From the NCBI GenBank assembly GCA_002099625.1, contig GCA_002099625.1_4857.1: a stretch of DNA of 64,000 nt, one strand, 5' to 3'. The notes beneath the pieces were generated by a model. It saw only the letters and a list, made by a program, of their open reading frames with translations. It made no database searches and was not told where the DNA came from. Shown piece after piece: positions 29,998 to 55,938 of the stretch. The position numbers and the translations under genes are program-made. The stretch is from Escherichia coli (GTDB lineage Bacteria > Pseudomonadota > Gammaproteobacteria > Enterobacterales > Enterobacteriaceae). The first letter of the stretch is position 1. Every line of letters starts with the position of its first letter.

Positions 29998-29999
29998 GA

Positions 30000-30074
30000 C
30001 GGACTGCCTACGGGCGGGTAGTCCGTAGGTAAACCGCCCTTCCGTTATTGGGAGGGCGGTCTCCGTTTTATTAC
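30000..30074 (+). terminator. tandem hairpins followed by T-run (terminator/attenuator, approx coords)
   Basis: Hairpin 1 CGGACTGCCTACGGGCGGGTAGTCCG; hairpin 2 CCGCCCTTCC-GTTATT-GGGAGGGCGG, then TCTCCGTTTTATTA. Confidence 0.5.
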
Positions 30075-30092
30075 AGATTAGGAGTGTTTGCA

Positions 30093-35276: not shown

Positions 35277-35323
35277 CAGATAGCGCTATGGGGCAAGGAA
35301 GCCCCAATCAAAGGAGTTTGGCA

Positions 35324-36526: not shown

Positions 36527-36539
36527 CTTGTTTACGAGC

Positions 36540-36580
36540 CGGACTATGTTTATGGACATAGTCCGCTCGTTCTACTTTTT
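36540..36580 (+). terminator. rho-independent terminator/attenuator (approx coords)
   Basis: 9-bp stem CGGACTATG/CATAGTCCG, 8-nt loop, then CTACTTTTTAA; lies between fibre operon and first Cys-rich peptide gene. Confidence 0.5.
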
Positions 36581-36591
36581 AAGGAAGCGTA

Positions 36592-36984
36592 ATGGCGATA
36601 TCTATTAAAGACGTCAGAAACCGCGTCCAGATAGTCGAAGCTAACATGGCGACAGGCCCCCGTATCGACGCGCAAGTGGCCTCTAAAGCCCATAATGCGG
36701 CAGACCGATTTGGGGGTTGGACGAAAGCACAGCTAGATTGCGGCGGGACATGTTCTTGGACGTGCTCTAACGGTTGCTCGCATGGCTGTTCGAGCTGTTC
36801 AGGAAGCTGTTCTGCTTCTTGTATCGGTAGCTGTTCTTCGACGTGTGGCGGTAACTGTTCTGGTTGCTCTGGTTGTTCTGGTGGTTGCAGTAGTAGCTGT
36901 ACCGGTAACTGTTCAGGTGGTTGCGGCGGCTCTTGTTCCGCAAACTGCTCCGGGGCCTGCTCCGGCGGCTGTTCAGGTCGCTAA
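36592..36984 (+). CDS. Cys/Ser/Gly-rich precursor-like peptide P1 (130 aa): ~50-aa leader-like N-terminus plus 21-Cys repeat core
   Basis: AAGGAAG RBS; N-terminus MAISIKDVRNRVQIVEAN...; core DCGGTCSWTCSNGCSHGCSSCSGSC... with Cys every 3-4 residues; ends CSANCSGACSGGCSG. Confidence 0.65.
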   Translation: MAISIKDVRNRVQIVEANMATGPRIDAQVASKAHNAADRFGGWTKAQLDCGGTCSWTCSNGCSHGCSSCSGSCSASCIGSCSSTCGGNCSGCSGCSGGCSSSCTGNCSGGCGGSCSANCSGACSGGCSGR

Positions 36985-36994
36985 GGGGGATTAA

Positions 36995-37399
36995 ATGGCA
37001 ATTGGATTAAAAGAACTGAATAACCGATTAAACACGATCGATGCAAACGCTTTAAAGAACACCACGAATGTGCAAAACTACATTCGCAATAAAGCTACGA
37101 ATAACGCCGACTTGTTCGCAGGTCAAGGCCGTTCGCACTATGACTGTGGCGGCACATGCTCTTTTAGTTGCTCGAGTTGTTCTGGCGGGTGTACTGGGTC
37201 CGCTACGGGTGGTTGTGGGTCGACTTGTTCCGCAAACTGTGTATCGGGCTGTAGCAGCAGCTGTACGGGCTGTAGCTCTTCGTGCTCGGGTGGTTGTAGC
37301 GGCACGTGCACAGGCAGCTGTTCTGGGGGTTGTGGTAAATCCTGCTCCGCAAACTGCTCAGGTGCGTGCTCTGGTGGTTGTTCAGGTCCTAACTCCTAA
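36995..37399 (+). CDS. Cys/Ser/Gly-rich precursor-like peptide P2 (134 aa)
   Basis: RBS AAGGGGG; N-terminus MAIGLKELNNRLNTIDAN... paralogous to P1; core about 21 Cys; same C-terminal CSANCSGACSGGCSG block. Confidence 0.65.
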   Translation: MAIGLKELNNRLNTIDANALKNTTNVQNYIRNKATNNADLFAGQGRSHYDCGGTCSFSCSSCSGGCTGSATGGCGSTCSANCVSGCSSSCTGCSSSCSGGCSGTCTGSCSGGCGKSCSANCSGACSGGCSGPNS

Positions 37400-37414
37400 C
37401 TGACGGAGGCTTAT

Positions 37415-37621
37415 GTGATCAGTCTCAAGGCTATTCGAAACCGTCTCGTTACGGCAGAAGGTTACATTACAACCGCACAGGCAAACAACTATATCGCTAA
37501 CCAGGGCACCGTGTCAACCACGAACAACCTGGCTGGTTTACCGCTTTCCCACTATAACTGTAATGGTGGGTGTAGCTGGTCCTGCAGCGGAAGCTGTAGC
37601 CGTGGAGCGGGGAATCGATAA
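37415..37621 (+). CDS. short precursor-like peptide P3 (68 aa, 4 Cys), probable GTG start
   Basis: RBS ACGGAGG; N-terminus (M)ISLKAIRNRLVTAEG shares leader motif with P1/P2; core NCNGGCSWSCSGSCS. Confidence 0.5.
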   Translation: MISLKAIRNRLVTAEGYITTAQANNYIANQGTVSTTNNLAGLPLSHYNCNGGCSWSCSGSCSRGAGNR

Positions 37622-37643
37622 CAGAAAACGTTCGGAGTATTAA

Positions 37644-38531
37644 ATGAAAAACGATTTGCATCTTGCGTATAAAACCACATTCAACCACCCGCTGCATCTA
37701 TCTTCCCCAGACTCGGTGCGTGCACACCTCGCTGACAAAGTCAGACTGATTGCACAGATTCCTGGTGAGTGGCCAAAGGTTCGTGGTCGCTTCTTGACCG
37801 ACAAGAAGAACTACACCGTAGAAAATACGTTTAAGATCCGTGATATGGTTGCAGAGGCCATCGTTATCTTTAACGGCGATGGTAACTCTCGCGGCGTGTT
37901 AGTCGACGGTAAGTATTTCTTCAGTGAAGGGATTTTGAACAACAGCGTCGATTTAGAACTGATGTTTACACCGTTTGACGAACTTGAAGCAAAACCGATG
38001 GCGCGCCGTTGGTGGAGTCCGGACTATCTGGGCTCGTTCCCTTACTACTTTGTACTGGTACCTGCCGATACGGAAACGTATTTCGACACCGAACCATACA
38101 TCGATATCGAGGGGTATAAAGAACTCGGCATCACCCGTTTAGCGGACATGATGGCGTATAGCTATAAGTTCGTGTGGGATAAAAAGCGTTCTGTCTGGTA
38201 TGCGCTGACTGACGATTTTGAAATCACCAAGCGTATTCGTAAGCCGTGGATGCAACACCTGGTTCAAACTCGATATGGGGATTACCCGGCGACAGAAGCG
38301 GATTTGAGTAAGCTGGTAAGTTTCCTCTTAACGAAGGTGGATTTAACGAAAGAAGAAGCAGAAGCTGTTTCTGAGATTCGTGGTCGTTCGGTAACGTTGG
38401 CCGATTTGAAACGTCTGAACGAAAGACACGCCGACCTGAACAAAATTTTAGCTGCCTATCACGACCCGATGTTACTGGTGCCTGGCGCTAACGTAGACGA
38501 AGATCCTTTATTCGCCATTGATTATATTTAA
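37644..38531 (+). CDS. hypothetical protein (295 aa) in peptide/rSAM operon
   Basis: ORF with RBS, between peptide genes and rSAM genes; no motif recognised. Confidence 0.65.
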   Translation: MKNDLHLAYKTTFNHPLHLSSPDSVRAHLADKVRLIAQIPGEWPKVRGRFLTDKKNYTVENTFKIRDMVAEAIVIFNGDGNSRGVLVDGKYFFSEGILNNSVDLELMFTPFDELEAKPMARRWWSPDYLGSFPYYFVLVPADTETYFDTEPYIDIEGYKELGITRLADMMAYSYKFVWDKKRSVWYALTDDFEITKRIRKPWMQHLVQTRYGDYPATEADLSKLVSFLLTKVDLTKEEAEAVSEIRGRSVTLADLKRLNERHADLNKILAAYHDPMLLVPGANVDEDPLFAIDYI

Positions 38532-38553
38532 AAATATACTGGAGCAACCTGCA

Positions 38554-39468
38554 ATGACAGATCAAGTAGAATCCAGGATCTCGTCTGAACTGTACGACAA
38601 ACCGTCAATTCTGTCGGTTGTCGCAACTTCTAAGTGTAACTTAGACTGTAGCTTCTGTGGAGGGGCTTATTACATGGATAGAGAAGATACTTCTCGTGAG
38701 TTTCAACGTGAAGAGATTCTCTCGATTTTAGAGAAGAATCCGGATATCGGTGAGATTCATTGGACGGGCGGTGAGCCGCTGTTAGCGCAGCGTAAGATTG
38801 AAGACTTCGTGAACGAGTTGAAGGAGTCTCATCCGAACCTCCGTCATCACATGTACACCAACGGTTTAAAGATGCGTAAATCACATCTGCCGTTGCTGAA
38901 ACAGTTCGACCTTATCTTTGTGTCCATTGACGGCTACAAGAAGTCGGAACGTCCGTTTATGAACTTTGTAAACGGTGGTAATCACGAAGCGCTGGAAGTG
39001 CTGTACGAGCTGGACAATTATTACACCTGGGGTGTGATGACGCGTGACCAGTTAGGCGATAAACGCTGGTACGAAGATTTCATCGAGCTGCACCGAGCAA
39101 TCTATCATTACCGTCCAGGTGGTGTGTCGTTGTTGTTTGATGCGATGATGCCGAAACCGTTATCGCCAGACCACGTCATGAACTTCATGTACGGGTATTG
39201 GAAAATACTCGACAATATCGAACGCCTTAACATGCAGAACGACTCTGAATGTGGGCTTGCGATCAGTAAAATGTTCGATACCGAGTGCAACACGTGCAGT
39301 GAAGTGCTGTGGCTTAACGCCGACGGTACGCAGGAGCAAATTCAGAACGCCCCAGAGATATTGGAAGTCGGCTGTAATCGCCTGGCGCGTTCTATCGGCG
39401 TTGATGCGTATAACTACATCAACCGTGTAATTTCTGCTAAGCGTAAACGGGCGGCGAACAATGAGTAA
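38554..39468 (+). CDS. radical SAM enzyme 1 (304 aa from Met13)
   Basis: CNLDCSFCGG (C-x3-C-x2-C) near N-terminus; WTGGEPLL glycine-rich SAM motif; additional C-terminal Cys (C-x12-C-x2-C...C) suggesting an auxiliary cluster. Confidence 0.75.
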   Translation: MTDQVESRISSELYDKPSILSVVATSKCNLDCSFCGGAYYMDREDTSREFQREEILSILEKNPDIGEIHWTGGEPLLAQRKIEDFVNELKESHPNLRHHMYTNGLKMRKSHLPLLKQFDLIFVSIDGYKKSERPFMNFVNGGNHEALEVLYELDNYYTWGVMTRDQLGDKRWYEDFIELHRAIYHYRPGGVSLLFDAMMPKPLSPDHVMNFMYGYWKILDNIERLNMQNDSECGLAISKMFDTECNTCSEVLWLNADGTQEQIQNAPEILEVGCNRLARSIGVDAYNYINRVISAKRKRAANNE

Positions 39469-40789
39469 TAGCGAACAGCAAATCCAGTACACACCACGCA
39501 CGTATCAGGTTGTGACTAACCTGTCATGTAACCTGGACTGCGAATACTGCTACGAGCGTAAATATCCGCGTAACAACAAAGTAGCAGACGTGATTGATTT
39601 TATCCACGCTTGTTTCGAGCGTGATAAAGATATCCCGAACGTTGAAGTCATCATCGATATCATCGGTGGTGAGCCGTTCATGCAGCCTAAACTTCTTTTG
39701 GCGGCCTTTGAAACCGCAGAGAAGTTATGCGCAGAACACAATCGCCCGTATATGTTCAGTATCTCCACGAACGGTACGCTTCTGGACCGTCCGCTGAACA
39801 AAGAAATTATCGAGCGCTGGAAAGACAAACTGTCTATTGGGGTCTCCATCGATGGTTTACCTGAAGTCCATGACAAATATCGTATCTTTACCACGACGCG
39901 TGAAGGGTCGTACGAAGCTGCGGTACGCGGTTACAATTATCTGAAGAGTGTTGGCATCGCTGAACTGGGCGTAAAAGCGACGTTTACGATCGATACATTG
40001 CCGCACTATGCCGCCAGCATGAAATCGTTAATTGACATGTCCGGCGGTGGTACCATTTCTGGTAATGTAACGTACGAAGATATCCTGCCGCGCCATATGG
40101 CGTTGGATATCGCGAACCAGATGATGGACGTGATGGACTACTGGATTGAGAAGGGTCTGCACACCAACCCGCGTAACACGATTACACACATCATCCCGGA
40201 TGGCCTGAACTTTATGGCAACTTGGGACCCGGATTGGCGTGACAAACTCTTGCACGACGACTCTGTTCGTCTCGACCCAGAACGCCTGAAACCGTACTGC
40301 GGTACGTTGACGCACATGACCTGTCTCGGCTTTGATCGCAAGATTTACGGTTGTAACCGTTTCATGTCCACGGTAACTTCCCGCTCTGCTGTAGCGGAAC
40401 TGGTCGGTCGTGAGTTTGTGAGTCTGGACGGTGGTAAGCTGTTAGAAGAGATTCAAACGCAGTACACCAACTACCCAGAAACCTGTTTAGGGTGTCCGAT
40501 GAAGCACAGCTGCGGTAGCTGCGCAGCAGCATCGTACGAAAACGGTGAAGGTACACTGGAAGACCGTAAAGCGTATCACGCCGAGCGTCGTCAGTGTGGT
40601 TGGACTACTGCGAAGCTGATGGCGGCGGAATATTGGTATCAAAAAACTGGTACGACTCGCGCATCAGATTTGCACGATAAATCCATGTGCTATTGTTCAC
40701 GTTGTGTACGCCAACGTGCCGAAGCAGAAAAATTACAAAACGGAGCCCAGAATGAAGTCAATACTGATTCACAATTTTACGAAGCGTAA
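39461..40789 (+). CDS. radical SAM enzyme 2 with SPASM-like C-terminal domain (442 aa)
   Basis: CNLDCEYC (C-x3-C-x2-C); IIGGEPF; C-terminal Cys cluster CGTLTHMTC...C...CLGCPMKHSCGSC typical of SPASM/twitch; start overlaps rSAM1 stop by 8 nt. Confidence 0.8.
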   Translation: MSNSEQQIQYTPRTYQVVTNLSCNLDCEYCYERKYPRNNKVADVIDFIHACFERDKDIPNVEVIIDIIGGEPFMQPKLLLAAFETAEKLCAEHNRPYMFSISTNGTLLDRPLNKEIIERWKDKLSIGVSIDGLPEVHDKYRIFTTTREGSYEAAVRGYNYLKSVGIAELGVKATFTIDTLPHYAASMKSLIDMSGGGTISGNVTYEDILPRHMALDIANQMMDVMDYWIEKGLHTNPRNTITHIIPDGLNFMATWDPDWRDKLLHDDSVRLDPERLKPYCGTLTHMTCLGFDRKIYGCNRFMSTVTSRSAVAELVGREFVSLDGGKLLEEIQTQYTNYPETCLGCPMKHSCGSCAAASYENGEGTLEDRKAYHAERRQCGWTTAKLMAAEYWYQKTGTTRASDLHDKSMCYCSRCVRQRAEAEKLQNGAQNEVNTDSQFYEA

Positions 40790-41318
40790 ACTGCACTTGG
40801 TCGATCGCTTCCTGCGCAAAAGCAAGCTGTACAATGTGCACGCAATTGTGGCAGGGGAAGACTTCACTGATGAAATCCAAAGCCTGTTGATTAAATACGG
40901 GCTGAATGTGATGATCCCGGTCTACTGCGTTGAGAAAGGACACGAGTCTGTCGCGGAAATCGAAAAGCGCAACCCTGGCTTTGAGAAGCGACTGCTTGCA
41001 TACCCACGCCACAAAATCGAACTGCTACGTCACTCTATTGATGAAGCCAGTCCTGAAAGTTTAGTGGCATTGGGCTTGTCATTCCCGCGGATGCGTATTC
41101 GTAACTTACGCTCCAATAACCCGGTTGACGCTTATTACACAGAACGTCAAATCTTCGAAGAACACCTGCTCCCGCAGTTGGAAGAAGAAGAGCAACACAA
41201 CATTTCTCTGTTGTGGGCCGGTAACCTCGATCAGGACTTCCAGATGCTGGACTTCGGTTTGTTGTTAGAACTTGGCCTGATTGAGGAGGACGAATGTCTG
41301 TTACTGACAAAAGCTTAA
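40752..41318 (+). CDS. hypothetical protein (188 aa from Met17)
   Basis: ACGGAG RBS before internal ATG; overlaps rSAM2 3' end. Confidence 0.55.
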   Translation: MKSILIHNFTKRKLHLVDRFLRKSKLYNVHAIVAGEDFTDEIQSLLIKYGLNVMIPVYCVEKGHESVAEIEKRNPGFEKRLLAYPRHKIELLRHSIDEASPESLVALGLSFPRMRIRNLRSNNPVDAYYTERQIFEEHLLPQLEEEEQHNISLLWAGNLDQDFQMLDFGLLLELGLIEEDECLLLTKA

Positions 41319-41965
41319 CGAACGAAGAGATCCGCGCCCGTTATTTCCAGCGCGATTTGCCGATTGATCGTCACGGTAATTTCATGGAACGAATCGGTGC
41401 GCAGGATCAGGGTCGTACTGGATTTTGTGCATTACTCCATTACCATCTCATCGAAGGGATGTCTGATAAAGAAGCCCTGGCACGCATGAAGCTGTATGAG
41501 ATGTCGGAGATTGAAGCTAACTTCACATTGAAACGCACGAAAGAGTTTATTGCTAATGTGCTGGAGATTGACCTCGACGAAATTCGCGGGAATCTGAAAT
41601 CTACCGCACGTTACATTTACGAAGACGTGCAGAAGATGCTGTTGGAACTTGACCATCGCTACGAAGATGAGCGCCATGGTTATATCGAGTTTGAAGGTAG
41701 CCACTTTCAAGCCGATGAATCGTCGCGTACCATCCTCGGTCAATATATTCAGGCGGATACCGCACCAGAATACTGGCTCGATACGCTGAATACTAAGCAC
41801 AGTCCGTTTACAGTAGACCAATGTAAAGCGTTGTTGGCCGCTATTGTTGCACGTGACCAAGTGTTGCACTCAGCAATGGCAGATAACAAACGCCAAATCC
41901 GTGAGTTGGCTGAAAAGCGCGATTACACTGGATTAAAAACATTGTCCGAATCTCTCGGCATGTAA
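41294..41965 (+). CDS. hypothetical protein (223 aa), last gene of operon
   Basis: GAGGAGGA RBS; followed by strong terminator. Confidence 0.6.
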   Translation: MSVTDKSLTNEEIRARYFQRDLPIDRHGNFMERIGAQDQGRTGFCALLHYHLIEGMSDKEALARMKLYEMSEIEANFTLKRTKEFIANVLEIDLDEIRGNLKSTARYIYEDVQKMLLELDHRYEDERHGYIEFEGSHFQADESSRTILGQYIQADTAPEYWLDTLNTKHSPFTVDQCKALLAAIVARDQVLHSAMADNKRQIRELAEKRDYTGLKTLSESLGM

Positions 41966-41967: not shown

Positions 41968-42024
41968 AAAGAAAATAAAGGCCCTACCTCCCCGAAGGGA
42001 GGTAGGTACCTTTTATTTATTTCT
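41968..42024. terminator. bidirectional rho-independent terminator (approx coords)
   Basis: 10-bp stem CCTACCTCCC/GGGAGGTAGG, GAA loop, A-run before and TTTTATTTATTT after. Confidence 0.7.
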
Positions 42025-42046: not shown

Positions 42047-42574
42047 TTAAACGAATCCGTCCAGTTCACCGTTGGTGGTGCTCAGGTCAGTTTTAACGAC
42101 TGGCTGCGTTACAGTATAAACTGCAAGGCTGGCAGGCTGGTATTTAATGTGGCCTTCTTTCACCTTAACAGTGATGATTTTCTCACCACTGTCGCCGTCC
42201 TCGCGTGTAATGGTGAGTTCAGACAATGCAAACGCATCTTCCGTTTTACCGGCAGCAATTAGATCTGCGTTGACAAAAGCAAGCACTTCTTCATCGGTAT
42301 CCCATTCTGCCTGGTCAGCGGTCACTGCTTTCGCACCGATAATGTTCAATGAATTGAGGCGGGTATAATGCAGCTCTTTCTCGCCAGTAAAGTTAGCGGA
42401 TTCCGCGGTGGCAGTGATGGTGAGTTTGGAGTTGCGAGTGTCTCCAGAATCTGCTGGTGAATAGTCGGCAACAGCGCCGAATGTAACGTCAGCAGAAGTT
42501 AACGGACTAGACAGTCCGCTGTTTGCAGCATTAAACAGCGCAACGAGTTGGTCTTTTGCAGAGATGACTGCCAT
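42047..42574 (-). CDS. small member of the fibre-like paralog family (175 aa) with C-terminal NGELDGF motif
   Basis: N-terminus MAVISAKDQLVALFNAAN resembles family N-termini; ends TTNGELDGFV; AAGGAA RBS. Confidence 0.65.
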   Translation of the reverse strand: MAVISAKDQLVALFNAANSGLSSPLTSADVTFGAVADYSPADSGDTRNSKLTITATAESANFTGEKELHYTRLNSLNIIGAKAVTADQAEWDTDEEVLAFVNADLIAAGKTEDAFALSELTITREDGDSGEKIITVKVKEGHIKYQPASLAVYTVTQPVVKTDLSTTNGELDGFV

Positions 42575-42697
42575 GGTTGTTTCCTTATAGTAGGTTTGTG
42601 GTGCATACTAAATCATTCTAAAAAATACATAGTGGGCTTAATATGACAGTAAAGTTGGCTGTTAAACAAGAAATTTTTTACCACTGAAAGGTACTCT

Positions 42698-43189
42698 ATG
42701 AAACGTCTATTTATCGTATTCGCGATTATAAACCTGTTGGCCGGTTGTGTTCAGTCGCCAAGCAACATAGGACAATTTAGCGCCACACCAGTAAAGAATC
42801 ACGACTTGGTGATTTATACATGCACAGGGACGCAGGAGAAGTTTATAGACTACCGTCCGGTTCTGGACAATCTACAGATGATGCCGCGGTCAGTAACAGT
42901 AATGGATGTGGGTGCAAACTGGGTAGCAACGTGGGACGGTGGCAAACTTGAGTCACCGATGATGTTTAAAGATGTGGTTGGCAAAATCGACGGGAATGTT
43001 AACACCACCACGGGCGAGCGTTATTACCGTATTAATAAAACAGCAAACGATAGCCCAACTTATTCTTTTTCGGATGTGAACCCACATACCGGGGAAGGTA
43101 AAGGGATGACATTCTTTCGCTGCAGCGCCGGCTTTATCGACGAAGTTCCTACGCCGATTATGATTGTTCCGTTAGAAGAAAATAAATAA
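42698..43189 (+). CDS. lipoprotein (163 aa)
   Basis: MKRLFIVFAIINLLAGC lipobox LAGC; isolated plus-strand gene with own terminator. Confidence 0.65.
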   Translation: MKRLFIVFAIINLLAGCVQSPSNIGQFSATPVKNHDLVIYTCTGTQEKFIDYRPVLDNLQMMPRSVTVMDVGANWVATWDGGKLESPMMFKDVVGKIDGNVNTTTGERYYRINKTANDSPTYSFSDVNPHTGEGKGMTFFRCSAGFIDEVPTPIMIVPLEENK

Positions 43190-43234
43190 TGCTTACCCAC
43201 TCCCGTAAGGGGAGTGGGTATGGGCTTTATTTAC
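43186..43234 (+). terminator. rho-independent terminator (approx coords)
   Basis: Stem ACCCACTCCC/GGGAGTGGGT, loop GTAA, followed by GGGCTTTATTT. Confidence 0.6.
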
Positions 43235-43239
43235 CCTCT

Positions 43240-43285
43240 AAAACGCTCTGTAACGCTCTCTAAACGCATTAAACGTCTTGGATGA
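43240..43285. repeat. four tandem ~10-bp direct repeats, core AACGC (approx coords)
   Basis: CTAAAACGCTCTG / TAACGCTCTC / TAAACGCATT / AAACGTCTTG in convergent intergenic region. Confidence 0.3.
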
Positions 43286-43314
43286 TAAATGATATTACTT
43301 TTGATTAAAGTGGC

Positions 43315-43830
43315 TTAGATTTTAACTAGCTTGCTCCAATCGATGGGTTGTTGTTTAACCACTTTAACGGTACCACGTGTCGGTGACCAGAAAGTGATAT
43401 CAGGCTGGTTGCGTACGTCAACATGCAGCCAGGTAATATCGCACTCGATAAAGTGAATAAACGGAAACTCGTTAGGGTTCGCGGCAATATAGTCGTGTAC
43501 TTTCTGCAACGGAGTATCAAGCATTGTTGCATCAAACGCATTGCCGAATTTATGCATACTGCCTGATTCCGCGTACAGTTTGTTTGCACGAGTTTGCCAA
43601 TCGCCACCCTTTGGTTTCTCTTGATTAATAAAGAACTGCAGGGTACGCAGACTACGCTGTTGCTGGGAACTGGTTAAAATCACCATCCGCCCAAAACGAT
43701 TACGAATCTGTTGGAGCGAGATTAGCAGTAACGGATTAAGGAAACGAATAGCACCTTCACCGTATTTCGCGATGTACTCCTGCGGCATCAACTCTTTTAA
43801 CGCGAAGTTGGCAGGATTCGGATGAAACAT
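43315..43830 (-). CDS. LAS-type zinc peptidase (peptidase M15-like; candidate endolysin L-alanyl-D-glutamate peptidase)
   Basis: SMHKFGNAFDA matches S-x-H-x-x-G-x-A-x-D zinc-binding block; downstream LHVDVR (H-x-D); AAGGAG RBS. Confidence 0.6.
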   Translation of the reverse strand: MFHPNPANFALKELMPQEYIAKYGEGAIRFLNPLLLISLQQIRNRFGRMVILTSSQQQRSLRTLQFFINQEKPKGGDWQTRANKLYAESGSMHKFGNAFDATMLDTPLQKVHDYIAANPNEFPFIHFIECDITWLHVDVRNQPDITFWSPTRGTVKVVKQQPIDWSKLVKI

Positions 43831-43839
43831 TTTCTCTCC

Positions 43840-44481
43840 TTAAGGGGTAGTCAGGAACGCACGTTTGATATTCAAATACTGCACGTTTACCGGTTGCCCA
43901 TTAGTAATGTCAACACGTTCGTGTTCAGGAATCGCTAACGTACGCGACGTTCTAAAGAACAGGTAGTTGCGATTATAGGACAACGTCTTTTCTACCGGCC
44001 GGCTATAAACCACCTTAGAGTTATCGTCTACATAGGACGGCCAACCAAACTCGTGAACGGCATGGTAGAAGGACTTACGAATAAAGGTATCAACGCCTAA
44101 TGCCTCCATGATACGTAAGAACATCAGGTCAGCGAATGTTTTGTCACATGCACGAGATAGATTACCTTCGACAGTGTCAGGGTAAAAGCCTACCGATGAA
44201 CGTTTCTGGTAAAACAAATCATGCACACAAGCGGCAGCGGCCCAAGGCCCATCCGGATGCAGGATAGGACGTAACGCTTCTGGAATGCTTGCCAGGTCCG
44301 TCACAAATCCTCTCGGTACCGTTACCCATAACGGGGTATCCGGATGCACACCTGCTAATGCTACCATCGCATCCATTCCGGTCTGTTCACGATAGAGGCT
44401 GCGCAACGTAAACTCGAAATGGAAATCATCCGTGAGGATAAACCACGGCTTCTCTAACAACTTATACTCAAGTGCTTCCAT
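43840..44481 (-). CDS. hypothetical protein, DUF1353-like (213 aa)
   Basis: Motif PRGFVTDLASIP...HDLFY reminiscent of DUF1353 phage proteins; GTGAGG RBS. Confidence 0.5.
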   Translation of the reverse strand: MEALEYKLLEKPWFILTDDFHFEFTLRSLYREQTGMDAMVALAGVHPDTPLWVTVPRGFVTDLASIPEALRPILHPDGPWAAAACVHDLFYQKRSSVGFYPDTVEGNLSRACDKTFADLMFLRIMEALGVDTFIRKSFYHAVHEFGWPSYVDDNSKVVYSRPVEKTLSYNRNYLFFRTSRTLAIPEHERVDITNGQPVNVQYLNIKRAFLTTP

Positions 44482-44488
44482 ACTGACC

Positions 44489-44581
44489 TCACGTCATATA
44501 ACGCACGAGCATCGTGAGGACCATTAATCCCAGTAAAATGGGCATTAAGCCTTTCGGCCAGTCGTCGTTGTCGTATTGCAT
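44489..44581 (-). CDS. possible small TM peptide (30 aa; approx coords)
   Basis: GGAGGG RBS 7 nt before ATG; MQYDNDDWPKGLMPILLGLMVLTMLVRYMT has one hydrophobic helix; below ORF-track size cutoff. Confidence 0.25.
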   Translation of the reverse strand: MQYDNDDWPKGLMPILLGLMVLTMLVRYMT

Positions 44582-44697
44582 GGCTTTACCCTCCGACAGA
44601 AGATCGCGCGTAATAGTTTGAAGAACCCAGAATCGTAATACGTTTCCGGAACGGTTTGTACTTCGGGGAACTTAGGCGGAGTTGGACGGTGGGTCAT
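44545..44697 (-). CDS. possible small protein (50 aa; approx coords)
   Basis: AAGGAG RBS 8 nt before ATG; overlaps neighbouring small ORFs out of frame. Confidence 0.2.
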   Translation of the reverse strand: MTHRPTPPKFPEVQTVPETYYDSGFFKLLRAIFCRRVKPCNTTTTTGRKA

Positions 44698-44773
44698 TAC
44701 GTTTTCTCCTTGCGGCAAAAACAAGGGCGCGCCAGATAGCTTTCATTAAGGCAGCAAACCAATTCTGTTTCAT
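44672..44773 (-). CDS. possible small basic/amphipathic peptide (33 aa; approx coords)
   Basis: ATG overlaps the lysozyme-gene stop (ATGA); MKQNWFAALMKAIWRALVFAARRKR. Confidence 0.2.
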   Translation of the reverse strand: MKQNWFAALMKAIWRALVFAARRKRNDPPSNSA

Positions 44774-45387
44774 TTGCACACCCCCAACTTAGCCACGTAG
44801 TCTGGCATTTCATGATAGACGCGGCCATACCAGCCGTAAGTAAACTCTTCGTTATCCTCACGCCCTTCACTGATTTCCGTGTAATACGCAACCTGATGAC
44901 AGGTTAAAGCGAACATCAGTCGATTCAGGCCCTCTTCCCCACGGGCTTTGATGAAGCCTTCTAACGCTGTTAACGTACGTGGCCCGATACCACCATCGGC
45001 ATCGATATCATCGTATAGTTTACCCTGACGGTTTAATACGTTCAGAATACGTTGCAGGGACTTGATACAGTTACCGCGTCCTGCGTTAATGCCGAAATCA
45101 AACATTCGGTCAGCTAGCAGGACATTCATTTTCATAATCTGGTCTAAACGCATTCGCTGCCACCAGAGCTTGTTGTAAATGTCTAACGCGATTTCTAAGC
45201 TCAGGTCACGCATATCCCCTTTATAGCCATATTCGCGCGCAGTGAGTTCGGTGACACCGCGGTTCGTTGCTTTGCCCAAATCTTTCGGGTTATTAACGTA
45301 ACCGGCTTCGATGTTTACTTTGGCACGAATAATGCCCTCTTTACTCCAACGATCGACCACGATAACCTCCTGAGTTGATAGGGTCAT
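44770..45387 (-). CDS. GH108-like lysozyme with C-terminal PG_binding_3-like domain (206 aa from Met13; candidate endolysin)
   Basis: EAGYVNNPKDLGKATNRGVTELT resembles the GH108 E-G-G-Y-V-N-D-P-x-D-x-G-G-x-T block; DADGGIGPRTLTAL resembles the D-G-x-x-G-P-x-T PG-binding motif; track start lies inside terminator hairpin, Met13 follows it. Confidence 0.65.
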   Translation of the reverse strand: MTLSTQEVIVVDRWSKEGIIRAKVNIEAGYVNNPKDLGKATNRGVTELTAREYGYKGDMRDLSLEIALDIYNKLWWQRMRLDQIMKMNVLLADRMFDFGINAGRGNCIKSLQRILNVLNRQGKLYDDIDADGGIGPRTLTALEGFIKARGEEGLNRLMFALTCHQVAYYTEISEGREDNEEFTYGWYGRVYHEMPDYVAKLGVCK

Positions 45388-45389
45388 AA

Positions 45390-45420
45390 AAAGAAAGCCT
45401 CTTCCCCACAGGGAAGAGGG
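45390..45420 (-). terminator. rho-independent terminator (approx coords)
   Basis: Stem CCTCTTCCC/GGGAAGAGG, loop CACA, T-rich tail on minus strand. Confidence 0.5.
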
Positions 45421-45465
45421 CATGGGTTATCTTCAGGCTTTAAACCCGTCAAGTTCCTCGTTAAA

Positions 45466-47643
45466 TTACGATAACGGTATCGTTGGCCGCACCCACGGTT
45501 TAGGGGCAGATTTGGTATACGGATTACATTCCATCATTTTACCGAGATACGCATCGTAATACACGAAGCGATCGACGTAGAACTTCTCCACCGGTGCACT
45601 ACTGGTAGCCGATTTCACCCGGTTGCGTTCCACAGCGAGGCTAATCGCCCCGGTAGGTGCGGGTTTTAGCGTGAACATTACCGCGCGGTTGTAACGCCAA
45701 GTGTCGTGCACAATATCAAACTCCGATACACAGTGTGCCATGATACCAAACAATGTGGTGGCTGGTAAGTTGGCTACAGCATCGCCGTATGGTGTTCCCA
45801 CCAAACCGCCGGGTATGTTTTGCTTTTTGAACAGCGTACCTGAAATAATCGTACCTAAGAACTCCACAACTACAGGTTTGGTTGGGTCGGTGACTTTATC
45901 TATCCCATCCGCACTGGCCAATCGGTTGGCATCTAAATCTGCGAGGTAGTCGAGGAACTCTTGGTACTCGTCGGTGACATTCGGTTTCACCGTTCCGACG
46001 GATACCCAGTTGACGATACTTTTATTCCCACCGACGGCTTCGCCTGCCATCCCAGGGCGAGTCCATGACATCCCGTCTTCACGACCGTAGACATAGACTG
46101 GCGAGCCGGTAGCCGGGGTGTTCCATTGCTCGAACGCTGTATATCGTCCCGGCTGGCCCCAATCCCCACCCGGACCGCCATAGTAGCGACTCTGGTAGCC
46201 GGTAAATTGTGCGACGACTAACTGGGTAGCACCGCCTTTGTCACGGGACCCAGCTAAGCCGTTACGGTTATTGGTGCCGCTGGGCACCGCCGCGCCTGGC
46301 CCGAGAGGCGCACCACCAGCTCCACCGATCTTGGTGGTGCTAAACGCATAGTAGTCGCCCCCACCCCCACCACCGGCGATGGTGCCGTAGTTTTCGATGG
46401 TGACTTTGCCGCGGAAGGTATCGGTAATGTGGATTGCGTCAGCTCCGTCTGCTGATGTGTTCGCAGGCAGAGAATAGACCATACCCGAACCACCACGACC
46501 AAGAATGGTTCCCCGGTTAACGAAGTTCCAAACCACCTCGCCAATTTGCGGCAATTCGTCGATAACGAACGTCGGTTTCAGGTTGCTGTCGCGATAAACG
46601 AAAGCCCCCGCATCTACGGTCACGTTAACAAACAAACGCCCGCACGCCGCATGGTTGGTCAACGTTGTGGCCCAGTAGCTGTCCGAAACTTGCGACGTGG
46701 TTGTGTAATTCAGGTTAAGGGTTTGCTCGTTATCTTGATAGCGTGCCACATTCAACGTGGCACTGCCCATGACTTTGTACGAACCCTCCACGGGTGCCAA
46801 TTGCACTTGTCTTGGCCACTCGCCTGTCAAGTTCTCTACAGGAGCAATTTCGTTTACATCAAAAACACTCCGAATGCCGAGTGTCTCGATGGCCAGAGCA
46901 TCGTGCAGGCTACCGGTGAAATCATCCGGGACGTATGTGGTTTTGCCTGCATATGTCTCGAGTTTGTTACGTGAAAAGAACACATACTTCGTCCCAAACA
47001 TCCCGCTCCCCGGTCTAGCGGTCAAAGCCACGACGCTGTTATACGCAGAGGTTTGGCCTATATCCTCCGGGGACATCGGGGCGCTGACATCGACTTTATC
47101 AAGATCCACGATCCGTTTGGCTGCATTAGAGTAGAAGTTAATCCACTGCTGTTTATTCGCAGCCTTTAGCGTGAGAATGATATTGGTAACAGTGTAGACG
47201 GTGTTGATATCCACGTCGCCGTTTATCACATCTAGCGTTTGGCTGCCGTACCAGACAAGACTTGTCTGTTTCGCCTGGAACGTGATGCGCGCAGCATTGT
47301 TTGTCCAAGTGATAGGCAGGTCTTCAAAGTCGTCGGTTAAAAAGGTAATCCCCAGTAAAGTGTCTAAATGCGGCAACAGTTCGTGAATGGATGCACAAGT
47401 GGGAATGGCATCCAACTTAACCTTAGCGAAATAATCAGCAATATTTTGCTTCGTGACTTGGGCCGTAATTTGACCGTAACTTGAATACCCCGGACCCCCT
47501 GTCAGTGTGACGTCTAGGGTTTTTTCGTCATGATGCTCCACGGACACCAGGCGAACGTTAGCGGGGTCTACTGCTTTGGCGACCGCGTTTTTACGGTTGA
47601 GCGACCGAATCACGGTCGCCACTAAATCAGGAGTGTAGGACAT
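45466..47643 (-). CDS. fibre-like paralog family member, long form with Gly-rich region (725 aa)
   Basis: AAGGTG RBS; family-type N-terminus; Gly-rich segment GGGGGGDYY...GGAGGAPLGPGAAVPSG. Confidence 0.75.
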   Translation of the reverse strand: MSYTPDLVATVIRSLNRKNAVAKAVDPANVRLVSVEHHDEKTLDVTLTGGPGYSSYGQITAQVTKQNIADYFAKVKLDAIPTCASIHELLPHLDTLLGITFLTDDFEDLPITWTNNAARITFQAKQTSLVWYGSQTLDVINGDVDINTVYTVTNIILTLKAANKQQWINFYSNAAKRIVDLDKVDVSAPMSPEDIGQTSAYNSVVALTARPGSGMFGTKYVFFSRNKLETYAGKTTYVPDDFTGSLHDALAIETLGIRSVFDVNEIAPVENLTGEWPRQVQLAPVEGSYKVMGSATLNVARYQDNEQTLNLNYTTTSQVSDSYWATTLTNHAACGRLFVNVTVDAGAFVYRDSNLKPTFVIDELPQIGEVVWNFVNRGTILGRGGSGMVYSLPANTSADGADAIHITDTFRGKVTIENYGTIAGGGGGGDYYAFSTTKIGGAGGAPLGPGAAVPSGTNNRNGLAGSRDKGGATQLVVAQFTGYQSRYYGGPGGDWGQPGRYTAFEQWNTPATGSPVYVYGREDGMSWTRPGMAGEAVGGNKSIVNWVSVGTVKPNVTDEYQEFLDYLADLDANRLASADGIDKVTDPTKPVVVEFLGTIISGTLFKKQNIPGGLVGTPYGDAVANLPATTLFGIMAHCVSEFDIVHDTWRYNRAVMFTLKPAPTGAISLAVERNRVKSATSSAPVEKFYVDRFVYYDAYLGKMMECNPYTKSAPKPWVRPTIPLS

Positions 47644-47657
47644 GGTGACACCTTAGT

Positions 47658-48977
47658 CTATAGCGGTGGATACCAAGGGACCGGGGCGGTTTTGCTATAT
47701 GGACTGTAGACCATATAGCCGCCTTTGCTTGGGTCGTAATAGATGAAATAGTTACAGTAATTCGAGTAAATACTCGTCATTTGTTTGGATTGGTATCCGT
47801 TACGGTATAGTCCCTGGTAAGTAATAGCTGATGTCGTGGTGGTGTAAGCAGTGTGGTACAGTACCCGACGCCGGTTAGCAATACTTTCTTGGAACATTTC
47901 TTCGGTCGGAAACGCGTGTTGCATCAGCCGTCGAATACTCCCGGTACAGTATCGAGTGCCATACGGGGAACCCGTTAAATCATCCGCTGTTTCAGGCGCT
48001 TCCGCCCGAGTCAACACGTACTCGTTTTGATACAACGTGACGCTCATCGAATTTGAGCTGGTTTCCCGGAACCTCATGTAACGCGCATAACGTTCGACGT
48101 CCTCTTCCTGCGCCAAATAGGCCACGTTATTTTTCGGACCAAAGTGCAAGAAGAACGGACGGCGGAGATTACCCATATCCTCAGGTGGCGTCAACTTCAC
48201 GCAGTAATTGTACTCCCCACGCATATCAGGGTCTAAGCCTGGGTTGTTATTGCGTGTAGCGACATACCCATAGAGGTCATACGGGTTATCAGTAGCAGCA
48301 TTACCGATAGTGAACGGGATGCCCGACCATGCCGACAGCGCCGCGATGAACTGGGTCATGTACGAGTTACTGTTTAGTCGCAGCGGGGTACCCATCGGGA
48401 TATTGATTATCTGTTGGGTGTACATGCTCCAGTCGAGTCGATAGACCGTGCTGTAAACATCCATGGGTTCCCAAGCTCCGGTTTCGGTGGTGTGGTACAA
48501 GTCGGCAAAGCTGGGCTCTTCACGAATAAAGCTAATTGGAATGTGACCCGTGAATGCGGGGTTATCCGATTTAATCGCCACCGTCCGATCGCCCGTTGCC
48601 ACAGTGATCATTGCAAACTGGCTGTCAGGATACGTTAAATCGTCAGCAGTAAGCACCAGCCCACAAGCTGCGGAAATCCGATCGATGATGTCGCGGTAGG
48701 ACGTCGCCCGATAAGGTACTTTAACCGGTACGCTGACGCCTTTAAAATACTGCGAAAGGTTTAAGCGGTCGTAGTAGATGTCCATCTTACCGCTGTAACC
48801 ACCACCCTGTAATCCGTTTACCACTATACGGCTGTTGCGGCCATCGCGCAAGGCATTGGTTAAAGGACCTTGTAATAACGCCACGTTGGTTGCGTTGAGT
48901 GGTTTCTTGAGCTGCGGGTTATCACGATTAATCTGATCCCAAACCAGCTGCATGACAGGTTTGTTATAGTTGATCAT
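47658..48977 (-). CDS. fibre-like paralog family member (439 aa)
   Basis: N-terminus MINYNKPVMQLVWDQINRDNPQL...GRNS...YYDRLNLSQYF carries the family NRDNP / YYDRLNL motifs. Confidence 0.75.
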   Translation of the reverse strand: MINYNKPVMQLVWDQINRDNPQLKKPLNATNVALLQGPLTNALRDGRNSRIVVNGLQGGGYSGKMDIYYDRLNLSQYFKGVSVPVKVPYRATSYRDIIDRISAACGLVLTADDLTYPDSQFAMITVATGDRTVAIKSDNPAFTGHIPISFIREEPSFADLYHTTETGAWEPMDVYSTVYRLDWSMYTQQIINIPMGTPLRLNSNSYMTQFIAALSAWSGIPFTIGNAATDNPYDLYGYVATRNNNPGLDPDMRGEYNYCVKLTPPEDMGNLRRPFFLHFGPKNNVAYLAQEEDVERYARYMRFRETSSNSMSVTLYQNEYVLTRAEAPETADDLTGSPYGTRYCTGSIRRLMQHAFPTEEMFQESIANRRRVLYHTAYTTTTSAITYQGLYRNGYQSKQMTSIYSNYCNYFIYYDPSKGGYMVYSPYSKTAPVPWYPPL

Positions 48978-48987
48978 TGCAACGTCC

Positions 48988-49028
48988 TAAAAAAAGAAAA
49001 TAGGCCCCGAAGGGCCTATTTTTAGCTG
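48988..49028 (-). terminator. rho-independent terminator (approx coords)
   Basis: Stem TAGGCCC/GGGCCTA, loop CGAA, flanked by A/T runs. Confidence 0.55.
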
Positions 49029-49051
49029 TTATGGTGAAGTACGCTATCCCT

Positions 49052-49144
49052 TTAACTCCAGCTGATTCGACCTGCGTGTTGGGGATTATCCCGCTGAATG
49101 AGCCGACACAACAGCTCAAGTGCAGTGGATGAGTAAAACCCCAT
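49052..49144 (-). pseudogene. decayed remnant of a paralog-family gene (N-terminal ~30 codons fused to degenerate 3' end; approx coords)
   Basis: Minus-strand RBS+ATG gives MGFYSSTALELLCRLIQRDNPQHAGRISWS-stop, matching N-termini of the 480/498-aa paralogs; the following ~35 nt resemble the 3' end of gene 59342..60169. Confidence 0.4.
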
Positions 49145-49155
49145 ATTAGCTCCTG

Positions 49156-50058: not shown

Positions 50059-50061
50059 GTT

Positions 50062-51060: not shown

Positions 51061-51070
51061 CTGTTACTCC

Positions 51071-52513: not shown

Positions 52514-52524
52514 GAAGTCTCCTG

Positions 52525-53424: not shown

Positions 53425-53426
53425 GA

Positions 53427-54416: not shown

Positions 54417-54428
54417 TGTCGTTACCTC

Positions 54429-55925: not shown

Positions 55926-55938
55926 GGCTTTTACTCCG

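What the first reader, a model, noticed from the sequence alone, without database searches (positions are those of the whole stretch)
42575..43290. Isolated opposite-strand lipoprotein gene flanked by terminators (moron-like), plus short tandem repeats
The 163-aa lipoprotein gene is the only plus-strand gene in a minus-strand region, with its own terminator and a strong bidirectional terminator ~120 bp upstream. Moron-like lipoproteins of this kind often confer superinfection exclusion by blocking the phage receptor (as T5 Llp does). Immediately downstream are four ~10-bp tandem repeats with core AACGC that could be a protein-binding site.
Basis: inference. Interest (0 to 1): 0.45.

Follow-up and report, generated by a model that had tools for sequence, protein, structure and literature searches.

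The report
Conserved jumbo-phage outer-membrane lipoprotein gene
The gene is real and encodes a lipoprotein probably anchored in the host outer membrane, but it is a conserved late-type gene of SPN3US-like giant phages, not a recently acquired "moron"; its function is untested, and the repeats after it are not conserved as an array.

Summary
The window is an SPN3US-like nucleus-forming jumbo phage (about 97% identical to Salmonella phages SPLA1a and SPN3US). ORF 42698..43189 (+) is the orthologue of SPN3US_0159, annotated "hypothetical". It has a textbook lipoprotein signal (LLAG|C17, no Asp at +2). The predicted mature part is a closed beta-barrel with two invariant Cys, followed by a disordered Pro/Ala/Thr-rich tail. 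That tail ends in Lys in 24 of 32 family members.

The gene is flanked by minus-strand genes. It shares a strong hairpin (43194-43220) with the convergent gp158. No terminator lies about 120 bp upstream; the nearest is at 41983-42006, roughly 690 bp away.

It is not moron-like. Orthologues sit in the same neighbourhood in several genera infecting Salmonella, E. coli, Erwinia and Proteus. GC content is ordinary and dN/dS is 0.12-0.25. The conserved upstream motif (TTAATATGAC) belongs to the phage's own TATG class, shared with tail-sheath and baseplate genes.

No known family matches by sequence or specifically by fold. I tested Llp/Cor, spanin and MliC/PliC. Function is inferred only: an envelope-acting late protein, most likely Llp-like in effect (about 0.3).

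The AACG x4 array is statistically unusual here, but only one 16-nt block is conserved in relatives.

The parts
41983..42006 (.). Bidirectional hairpin terminator between convergent gp161 (+) and gp160 (-). This is the real 'upstream bidirectional terminator', about 690 bp from the lipoprotein ATG.
   Evidence: 10-bp stem, dG -25.6 and -27.5 kcal/mol, z -5.2 and -5.9.
42047..42574 (-). gp160 orthologue: a 175-aa abundant head protein carrying the N-terminal part of DUF7941. It is transcribed divergently from the lipoprotein gene. Relatives carry 1-4 paralogous copies.
   Evidence: PMC5694885; copy number.
42602..42608 (-). GTATGCA on the minus strand. It is a TATG-type promoter-like motif for gp160, about 30 nt before its ATG, and is conserved in 9 phages.
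42638..42650 (+). TTAATATGACAGT, a TATG-type (phiKZ late-promoter-like) motif. The predicted +1 is G42645, giving a 5' UTR of about 53 nt. ATATGACAGT is invariant in 9 phages. The TATGAC core recurs 50-60 nt upstream of the orthologue in three further genera (phiEaH2, Wellington, Machina).
   Evidence: TATG = late promoter with G as +1 in phiKZ (PMC4666361). The transcription start was not measured here.
42686..42691 (+). Ribosome-binding site GAAAGG, 6 nt before the ATG.
42698..43189 (+). Lipoprotein gene, 163 aa plus stop; orthologue of SPN3US_0159 / ACQ60_gp107.
   Evidence: dN/dS 0.12-0.25.
42698..42748 (+). Signal peptide with lipobox L-A-G-C; Cys17 codon at 42746-42748; +2 residue is Val.
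   Evidence: The lipobox is kept in 31 of 32 family members, and none has Asp at +2.
42776..43129 (+). Predicted closed all-beta barrel (residues about 27-144) with invariant C42 and C142 in the first long strand and the last strand.
   Evidence: (pLDDT mostly 86-95 across the core).
43130..43186 (+). Disordered Pro-rich C-terminal tail that ends in Lys163.
   Evidence: pLDDT 47-67; tails of 6-54 residues, rich in A/P/T; 24 of 32 end in Lys.
43194..43220 (.). Hairpin terminator shared by the lipoprotein gene (+) and convergent gp158 (-).
   Evidence: The stem is conserved in all 9 aligned phages while the loop varies.
43236..43276 (.). Four phased AACG(C/T) units. They lie after the terminator on the plus strand and in the 3' untranslated region of gp158 on the minus strand.
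   Evidence: Not conserved as an array. No covariation supports an RNA structure.
43248..43263 (.). CTGTAACGCTCTCTAA, the only part of the repeat region that is invariant out to pEa_SNUABM_29 and SPAsTU. It occurs once in the SPN3US genome.

Best explanation
WHAT IT IS (shown or strongly supported). This is a conserved, single-gene transcription unit of SPN3US-like (Chimalliviridae) jumbo phages. It encodes a secreted lipoprotein. The lipobox and the absence of Asp at +2 predict that the host lipoprotein pathway lipidates it and sends it to the inner face of the outer membrane. The mature protein is modelled as a short linker, a roughly 115-residue closed beta-barrel, and a flexible Pro/Ala/Thr-rich tail that usually ends in Lys. 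Two invariant Cys in the first and last barrel strands probably form a disulfide. The protein is not listed in the SPN3US virion protein table. The gene has its own conserved TATG-type motif. That motif class also precedes the tail-sheath, baseplate and gp160 genes, so the gene is probably read late by the phage's non-virion RNA polymerase. Transcription would end at the hairpin shared with gp158.

HOW IT MOST LIKELY WORKS (inferred, about 0.3). It accumulates late in the envelope of the infected cell and acts from the periplasmic side of the outer membrane. There it would disable an outer-membrane-level step of adsorption or penetration by phages of its own kind. Progeny would then not be wasted on infected cells and lysis debris. 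This is Llp/Cor-like in effect, but the protein is unrelated and much larger. The terminal Lys may fix it covalently to peptidoglycan through host L,D-transpeptidases.

The downstream AACG units are most likely incidental sequence around one short conserved block of unknown role.
For: Identity and conservation. The region is about 97% identical to SPLA1a and SPN3US, and the ORF is the orthologue of SPN3US_0159. tblastn finds it in 66 phage records. An exhaustive profile search finds only 16 representatives among 1.84 billion proteins. The named or long source contigs are jumbo-phage genomes of about 240 kb.

Lipoprotein features. The lipobox is kept in 31 of 32 members, with +2 residues A, V, T, Q, K or S.

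Genuine gene, not foreign. dN/dS is 0.12-0.25 and the GC z-score is -1.2.

Non-virion. Gene 159 is missing from the SPN3US virion table, which does list 157 and 160.

Promoter class. TA[AG]TATGA occurs 6 times in the SPN3US genome, and 5 of these are in upstream-sense gaps, against 0.02 expected (P 4e-11). The sites include the tail-sheath and baseplate genes, gp160 and this gene. The TATGAC core keeps its position in three other genera, namely Erskinevirus, Wellingtonvirus and Machinavirus. In phiKZ, TATG is the late-promoter motif (PMC4666361).

For an exclusion role. The gene borders the baseplate/fibre module. gp155 carries a GP38-adhesin domain. In Goslar the orthologue directly follows the tail-fibre and fibre-assembly genes. 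Known exclusion lipoproteins also sit directly downstream of receptor-binding or tail-tip genes, and Llp has an intramolecular disulfide constraining its termini (PMC9586334).

For the Lys tail. 24 of 32 members, and 17 of 25 distinct tail endings, end in Lys. The background is 12% in the SPN3US proteome and over 20% for E. coli periplasmic proteins. A C-terminal Lys sufficed for covalent attachment in Dickeya (PMC12274547).
Against: There are no functional data for this family; searches for gp159 and for SPN3US lipoproteins found nothing relevant.

The lipoprotein stays orthologous across phages whose fibres differ or lack gp155, and across Salmonella, E. coli, Erwinia and Proteus hosts. A strictly receptor-specific blocker would not be expected to behave this way.

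SPN3US is reported to use flagella as its receptor (PMC11428620). No outer-membrane protein receptor is known for it.

T5 Llp is small, and it is described as expressed early, whereas this protein is about 147 residues after processing with a late-type motif.

The late timing rests on a motif analogy with phiKZ, not on transcript data. TATG alone is common and is not sufficient in phiKZ.

The conserved terminal Lys could simply serve to avoid periplasmic proteases that recognise hydrophobic C-termini (its reference 57).
Confidence: 0.32

Rival explanations
1. Periplasmic controller of a peptidoglycan hydrolase. The barrel would bind and inhibit a lysozyme-type enzyme. The target would be either the phage's own GH108 endolysin or the tail lysin of superinfecting phages, the latter being T4 Spackle-like in effect. 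Mechanistically it would work like the bacterial MliC/PliC/PhiA inhibitors.
Confidence: 0.15
2. Peptidoglycan-tethered envelope protein (Lpp mimic). Host L,D-transpeptidases would link the terminal Lys to peptidoglycan. The protein would then brace, or alter the spacing of, the outer membrane and cell wall of the late infected cell.
For: The C-terminal Lys is conserved at the end of an otherwise hypervariable flexible tail. In Dickeya a single C-terminal Lys was necessary and sufficient for attachment, and the 'Lpp box' tolerates many substitutions (PMC12274547). The named phages with this gene infect Enterobacterales, the group whose E. coli and Dickeya members tether Lpp this way.
Against: Seven of 31 full-length members lack the Lys. 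The penultimate residues (EENK, VDAK, LVTK and others) do not resemble the YRK or TKK boxes. Avoiding periplasmic proteases is a simpler explanation for a terminal Lys. The host already has a very large amount of Lpp (my background knowledge), so a benefit is unclear.
Confidence: 0.15
3. Outer-membrane spanin component or other outer-membrane disruptor needed for the last step of lysis.
For: It is a phage outer-membrane lipoprotein with a late-type motif, close to an endolysin and to two small conserved membrane or amphipathic peptides at 44672..44779 and 44489..44581.
Against: It is a folded barrel. It has no adjacent or embedded inner-membrane partner and no C-terminal transmembrane segment. 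The window already holds a pair with spanin-like architecture: 835..1344 (-) has an N-terminal membrane segment and a Pro-rich C-terminus, and it is followed 10 nt later by the lipoprotein 346..825 (-).
Confidence: 0.07
4. True moron: a recently acquired, host-type transcription unit that benefits the host or a lysogen.
For: The gene is monocistronic, opposite in orientation to both neighbours, and followed by a hairpin.
Against: It is conserved in place across genera. Its GC content is typical. It is under purifying selection. It has a phage-type motif, and sigma-70-like sites are no more frequent than chance: 3 found against 3.9 expected. Its relatives are described as lytic jumbo phages. 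phiKZ-type phages transcribe independently of host RNA polymerase.
Confidence: 0.03

Closest known systems
T5 Llp and the Cor family of small superinfection-exclusion lipoproteins
   Same: All are phage-encoded lipoproteins of the outer membrane that act, or could act, from the periplasmic side. Llp has an intramolecular disulfide constraining its termini, and this protein has a conserved Cys pair that could do the same. The genes sit at or next to the receptor-binding or tail module, and in Goslar directly downstream of the fibre genes. The protein is not listed as a virion component.
   Different: This protein is about 147 residues after processing, against a small protein for Llp. It is a closed beta-barrel with a long flexible tail. 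No sequence or fold match was found. Orthology persists although fibres and hosts change. Its motif is late-type, whereas Llp is described as early.
MliC / PliC / PhiA lysozyme inhibitors
   Different: There is no significant profile similarity once the signal peptide is removed. The barrel is about 25-30 residues larger. The inhibitory-loop signature is only loosely echoed.
Braun's lipoprotein Lpp and other 'Lpp-box' proteins such as OutB of Dickeya
   Same: Lpp is likewise anchored in the outer membrane by an N-terminal lipid. Lpp and OutB both end in a C-terminal Lys at the end of a segment that can reach the cell wall.
   Different: The body is a barrel, not a coiled coil. The penultimate residues differ from known boxes. 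Attachment is untested.
Outer-membrane spanin subunits (Rz1 type)
   Same: Phage outer-membrane lipoprotein, probably late, near an endolysin.
   Different: It is folded, has no partner gene adjacent or embedded, and a separate spanin-like pair exists at 346..1344.
PHROG 9559 / SPN3US gp159 orthologues (UniProt automatic name 'Lipoprotein' in Erwinia phages Kwan, Huxley, Asesino)
   Same: This is the family the gene belongs to (E 1e-82).
   Different: Nothing differs; the family simply has no assigned function.

Membership tests
Bacterial-type lipoprotein (substrate of the host lipidation and sorting pathway) | Signal peptide with a positively charged start, a hydrophobic core and a lipobox [LVI][ASTVI][GAS]C | tested here: met
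   MKRLFIVFAIINLLAG|C17. The lipobox is present in 31 of 32 family members.
Bacterial-type lipoprotein (substrate of the host lipidation and sorting pathway) | No Asp at +2, which in Enterobacterales means outer-membrane sorting (rule taken from my background knowledge) | tested here: met
   +2 is V here and A, V, T, Q, K or S across the family; it is never D. Localisation itself was not measured.
Bacterial-type lipoprotein (substrate of the host lipidation and sorting pathway) | Actual lipidation and processing by signal peptidase II | not testable with these tools
   Needs globomycin or lipid-labelling experiments.
Moron | Autonomous unit: own promoter and own terminator between two phage genes | tested here: met
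   A conserved promoter-like motif at 42638-42650 and a hairpin at 43194-43220. The motif is of phage type, not host type.
Moron | Present in some related phages and absent from others at the same junction | tested here: not met
   Orthologues are found in the same neighbourhood in every related record examined.
Moron | Base composition unlike the surrounding genome | tested here: not met
   GC 45.3% against a gene mean of 48.4 +/- 2.6%, z -1.2.
Llp / Cor superinfection-exclusion lipoproteins | Sequence or fold similarity to Llp or Cor | tested here: not met
Llp / Cor superinfection-exclusion lipoproteins | Small mature protein | tested here: not met
   About 147 residues after processing. PMC9586334 describes Llp and Cor as small lipoproteins.
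Llp / Cor superinfection-exclusion lipoproteins | Gene directly adjacent to the receptor-binding gene and matched to that phage's receptor | tested here: inconclusive
   It is adjacent to fibre genes in Goslar only. It lies 4 genes from the GP38-domain fibre gp155 in this window. It is retained where gp155 is absent.
Llp / Cor superinfection-exclusion lipoproteins | Blocks adsorption or infection when expressed | not testable with these tools
   Needs plating and adsorption assays.
Spanins (two-component outer-membrane subunit, or unimolecular) | Partner gene for an inner-membrane subunit adjacent, overlapping or embedded; or a C-terminal membrane segment | tested here: not met
   Both neighbours are on the opposite strand. 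The C-terminal tail is polar and Pro-rich. A separate spanin-like pair lies at 346..1344.
MliC / PliC lysozyme inhibitors (Pfam PF09864) | Profile similarity of the mature domain, including the SxSGAxY loop | tested here: not met
   hhalign probability is 80% only over the signal peptide and the first Cys strand. For mature domains it is 0.2%, E 0.33. No Pfam hit.
MliC / PliC lysozyme inhibitors (Pfam PF09864) | Eight-stranded barrel fold closed by a disulfide | tested here: inconclusive
Lpp-box proteins covalently linked to peptidoglycan | C-terminal Lys exposed in the periplasm | tested here: met
   Lys163 here; 24 of 32 family members.
Lpp-box proteins covalently linked to peptidoglycan | Covalent bond to peptidoglycan made by L,D-transpeptidases | not testable with these tools
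   Needs sacculus purification and mass spectrometry.

The most novel reading that the evidence does not exclude
The protein could be the first viral protein that host L,D-transpeptidases attach covalently to peptidoglycan. In this reading, an outer-membrane lipid anchor at one end and a terminal Lys at the other end of a flexible tail staple a phage-made beta-barrel between the outer membrane and the cell wall late in infection. That could change envelope mechanics or spacing, and so affect phage entry, flagellar function or the timing of envelope failure.
Probability: 0.15. Interest if true: 0.7.

Novelty: new variant of a known kind. Interest (0 to 1): 0.33.

Why it matters
Nucleus-forming jumbo phages are studied intensely for what they do inside the cell. 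The jumbo-phage review I checked says nothing about lipoproteins, superinfection exclusion or spanins, and treats lysis only in passing.

This family is a conserved, secreted, non-virion protein restricted to the jumbo phages of Enterobacterales. It is therefore a concrete handle on how these phages alter the host envelope late in infection. If it blocks re-adsorption, it would matter for cocktail design and for phage yield in production. If it is stapled to peptidoglycan, it would extend a host-only chemistry to a virus.

As it stands, this is an uncharacterised but ordinary-looking accessory gene. The 'moron' framing should be dropped.

Tried and rejected
1. Sequence family searches. Pfam, PHROGs, PADLOC and PDB sequences gave only PHROG 9559, which has unknown function.

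3. MliC/PliC membership. I built an MliC profile from E. coli mliC homologues. The match vanished once signal peptides were removed.

4. Sigma-70 promoter. Sites are not enriched and are of doubtful relevance for this phage type.

5. A phiKZ middle-promoter-like 'TTTTTTACC' at 42674-42682. TTTTTTAC is not enriched in the window (6 found, 4.5 expected). It is not conserved in pEa_SNUABM_29 or SPAsTU. It also lies too close to the ATG for a motif centred about 24 nt before the transcription start.

6. An RNA structure in the repeat region on the minus strand. The single-sequence fold has z -3.4, but the alignment gives no covariation support (+0.81), with pairs broken in the divergent phages.

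7. The conserved 16-mer as a genome-wide regulatory motif. It occurs once in SPN3US.

8. Positive selection. dN/dS is 0.12-0.25, so there is no sign of it.

9. The time-course proteome paper on SPN3US infection (PMC6384053) is not held in the library. I could not check when gp159 is detected.

Full report
SOURCE AND IDENTITY. The 2-kb stretch around the finding is 95-98% identical over its full length to 33 phage records. These include Salmonella phages SPLA1a, 1252 and SPN3US, Escherichia phage Lh1B and Proteus phage 7, all about 240 kb. The window is therefore an SPN3US-like jumbo phage of genus Seoulvirus, family Chimalliviridae. The ORF in question, 42698..43189 (+), 163 aa, is the orthologue of SPN3US_0159 (RefSeq ACQ60_gp107). 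It is annotated "hypothetical protein".

CHECK OF THE OBSERVATION: THE GENE. The ORF is present as described. It begins MKRLFIVFAIINLLAG|CVQS. That gives a positively charged start, a hydrophobic core and the lipobox L-A-G-C with Cys17. A GAAAGG ribosome-binding site lies 6 nt upstream. Both immediate neighbours are on the minus strand: 42047..42574 and 43315..43830.

CHECK OF THE OBSERVATION: STRAND CONTEXT. A full gene map shows that the gene sits at the junction of two blocks. One is a 20-kb plus-strand block (22141..41965). The other is a 20-kb minus-strand block (43315..63984). So "the only plus-strand gene in a minus-strand region" is true only locally.

CHECK OF THE OBSERVATION: TERMINATORS. 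A strong hairpin follows the stop codon at 43194-43220. It has an 11-bp stem and dG -26 kcal/mol on either strand, with z -4.3 and -5.2. It also serves the convergent gene gp158. The claimed bidirectional terminator "about 120 bp upstream" does not exist. The 123-nt gap 42575-42697 folds no better than shuffled sequence, and the scan finds no hairpin there. The real bidirectional terminator is at 41983-42006, between convergent gp161 and gp160, about 690 bp from the ATG. The local layout is therefore: gp161 -> terminator <- gp160, divergent promoter gap, gp159 -> terminator <- gp158.

CHECK OF THE OBSERVATION: REPEATS. AACGC occurs at 43242, 43252 and 43263, and AACGT at 43272. Tandem Repeats Finder reports only 2.2 copies. 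A four-fold phased 4-mer array is nonetheless unusual: 0.09 are expected per 64 kb and two are observed, the other one inside a coding repeat. Conservation does not support an array. In SPN3US, JN03, SaP7 and Proteus phage 7, copy 3 reads AAAAGC. In the more distant pEa_SNUABM_29 and SPAsTU, copies 1, 3 and 4 are gone. Only the block CTGTAACGCTCTCTAA (43248-43263) is invariant. That block is unique in the SPN3US genome. On the minus strand the region is the 3' untranslated part of gp158 and folds moderately well alone (z -3.4). The alignment gives no covariation support, and pairs break in the divergent phages. I regard the four-repeat pattern as largely incidental. The 16-nt block is a small unexplained conserved element.

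THE PROTEIN FAMILY. The family is small and confined to one phage group. There are 37 clusters in 5.8 billion proteins, and the named or long source contigs are jumbo phages of about 240 kb. There are only 16 representatives in an exhaustive search of 1.84 billion proteins. tblastn finds matches in 66 phage records. These cover Seoulvirus, the Erwinia jumbo phages (phiEaH2, Asesino, Stratton, Wellington, Kwan, ChrisDB, Caitlin, Machina, Huxley and others), Salmonella pSal-SNUABM-04, and E. coli phage Goslar at 32% identity.

CONSERVED PROTEIN FEATURES. The 32-sequence alignment keeps the lipobox in 31 members and never has Asp at +2. It has invariant Y40, C42, G72, R108, Y110, S125, G132, G134, G136, F139 and C142. 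No Pfam, PADLOC or PDB-sequence match exists. The only family hit is PHROG 9559, "unknown function".

IS IT A MORON? No, for five reasons.
- Position. The gene occupies the same neighbourhood in every relative examined. It is divergent from one to four gp160-type genes. Outside Goslar it lies within a few kb of the DUF1353 gene, a small ORF and the GH108 endolysin, even where flanking blocks have been inverted. In Goslar it follows the tail-fibre and fibre-assembly genes on the same strand.
- Composition. GC is 45.3%, within the spread of the window's genes (48.4 +/- 2.6%).
- Selection. dN/dS among close relatives is 0.12-0.25, similar to gp160.
- Divergence. Across genera it reaches 63%, 56%, 49%, 44% and 32% identity. 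That is faster than the neighbouring enzymes and comparable to gp160-162. The baseplate and fibre proteins diverge far more or are replaced.
- Promoter type. The upstream motif is the phage's own, as described next.

PROMOTER CLASSES. I assembled the SPN3US genome from five fetched pieces and looked for words enriched in upstream gaps. Two classes emerged. The first is aGATAGATATTATCT, found before RNA-polymerase-subunit genes and several unnamed genes; 6 of the 8 genomic copies of GATAGATATTA are upstream-sense, against 0.04 expected. The second is TA[AG]TATGA(C); 5 of its 6 genomic copies are upstream-sense, against 0.02 expected (P 4e-11). Sites of the second class precede the tail-sheath gene, the baseplate assembly gene, a 1237-aa virion protein, gp160, gp157 and the lipoprotein gene, which has cttaATATGAcag 52 nt before the ATG.

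PROMOTER CONSERVATION AND MEANING. ATATGACAGT is invariant in nine aligned phages although the rest of the gap diverges. The TATGAC core recurs 50-60 nt upstream of the orthologue in phiEaH2, Wellington and Machina; Goslar has a weaker version. In phiKZ, TATG with the G as the start site is the late-promoter element read by the non-virion polymerase. It is necessary but not sufficient (PMC4666361). By analogy the gene is probably late. This is an inference, not a measurement.

SURROUNDINGS. gp160 is an abundant head protein, with more than 300 copies per capsid (PMC5694885). gp157 (DUF1353) is listed as a head protein in the same paper. Low amounts of gp158 were detected in some virion preparations but not in tailless particles, and the authors doubted that it is a true virion protein. 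gp156 is a GH108 + PG_binding_3 endolysin. gp155 combines DUF7941 with a GP38-adhesin domain and is a plausible receptor-binding fibre. Gene 159 is absent from the virion table. The lipoprotein is thus a non-virion gene embedded in a late structural region, next to but not clearly part of a lysis cassette.

FUNCTION: THE LLP-LIKE READING. This is my preferred reading, at about 0.3. It is supported by the predicted location at the outer membrane, facing the periplasm. It is also supported by non-virion status, the position bordering the fibre and baseplate module (directly after the fibre genes in Goslar), and a conserved Cys pair. In Llp an intramolecular disulfide constrains the termini (PMC9586334). 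Several facts weaken it. The protein is large. No homology was found. Orthology persists although fibres and hosts change. SPN3US is reported to use flagella as its receptor (PMC11428620).

FUNCTION: THE SPANIN READING. This is unlikely. The protein is folded, lacks a partner gene and lacks a C-terminal membrane segment. The window also contains a separate pair with spanin-like architecture. 835..1344 (-) has an N-terminal membrane segment and a Pro-rich end. It is followed 10 nt later by the lipoprotein 346..825 (-).

FUNCTION: THE HYDROLASE-INHIBITOR READING. This MliC/PliC- or Spackle-like reading has only weak fold support. It failed a profile test once signal peptides were removed.

The tail after the last Cys varies from 6 to 54 residues and is rich in Ala, Pro and Thr. 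Yet 24 of 32 members, and 17 of 25 distinct endings, finish with Lys. The background is 12% for all SPN3US proteins (binomial P 8e-11). At the 20% reported for E. coli periplasmic proteins, P is 3e-7. These figures are not corrected for shared ancestry. Braun's lipoprotein is tied to peptidoglycan through its C-terminal Lys. In Dickeya a single C-terminal Lys was necessary and sufficient for attachment, and the surrounding "box" tolerated many changes (PMC12274547). Covalent tethering of this phage protein is therefore a testable possibility. A simpler reason would be avoidance of periplasmic proteases that recognise hydrophobic C-termini.

VERDICT. The gene, its lipoprotein signal, its isolated orientation and the downstream hairpin are real. 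The "upstream terminator at 120 bp" is not. The repeats exist but are not conserved as an array. The "moron" interpretation is not supported. An exclusion-type function remains the best guess but is untested. The family is an uncharacterised, clade-restricted phage envelope lipoprotein with a barrel fold and a Lys-ended tail. I call it a new variant of a known kind, of modest interest unless the peptidoglycan-tether idea proves true.

Noticed in passing
window 346..1344 (-): A gene pair with spanin-like architecture. 835..1344 encodes 169 aa with one N-terminal membrane segment and a Pro-rich C-terminus. It is followed 10 nt later by 346..825, a 159-aa lipoprotein (LLLTG|C) with a Pro-rich mature N-terminus. 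PHROGs 8719 and 8165 list both as unknown function. They lie about 41 kb from the GH108 endolysin.
   Followed up: partly
window 44489..44581 (-) and 44672..44779 (-): Two small conserved ORFs between the endolysin gp156 and gp157. One is a 30-aa peptide with a single membrane segment. The other is a 35-aa amphipathic, cationic peptide (phrog_25143) that resembles phiEaH2 gp076. They may be small lysis or membrane-active peptides.
   Followed up: partly
window 45466..47643 (-), 47658..48977 (-), 42047..42574 (-); L007:6217-8829: The DUF7941 N-terminal domain is shared by gp155 (which also has a GP38 tail-fibre adhesin domain), gp154, the abundant head protein gp160, and Goslar gp086 (which also has a non-contractile tail sheath TIM-barrel domain). 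It is odd for one module to be shared between fibre-like and head proteins.
   Followed up: partly
L004, L006, L012, L013 upstream of the lipoprotein gene: The number of gp160-type genes next to the lipoprotein gene varies. SPN3US and Wellington have 1, phiEaH2 and Machina have 2, pEa_SNUABM_29 has 3 and SPAsTU has 4.
   Followed up: no
SPN3US genome (L014-L018), e.g. record positions upstream of 15768, 23859, 29014, 72738, 184093, 191651: A strongly conserved 15-mer, aGATAGATATTATCT, lies 33-62 nt before RNA-polymerase-subunit genes and several unnamed genes. It is a second, distinct promoter-like class, possibly early or middle. I found no published description in the searches I ran.
   Followed up: partly
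window 36592..37399 (+): The DNA of two adjacent small ORFs contains phased repeats such as TCTGG/CTGGT and GGGT. The translations and function were not examined.
   Followed up: no
window 43248..43263: The 16-nt block CTGTAACGCTCTCTAA is invariant out to pEa_SNUABM_29 and SPAsTU, while the flanking non-coding sequence diverges. It occurs once in the SPN3US genome. Its role is unknown.
   Followed up: partly
phage records LR535901-LR535913 (SPFM1, 5-10, 12, 14, 15, 20): In these SPFM genome records the region aligns in 27-29 broken pieces, and the lipoprotein ORF is split or frameshifted (P0005-P0009). This looks like assembly or sequencing error rather than biology.
   Followed up: no
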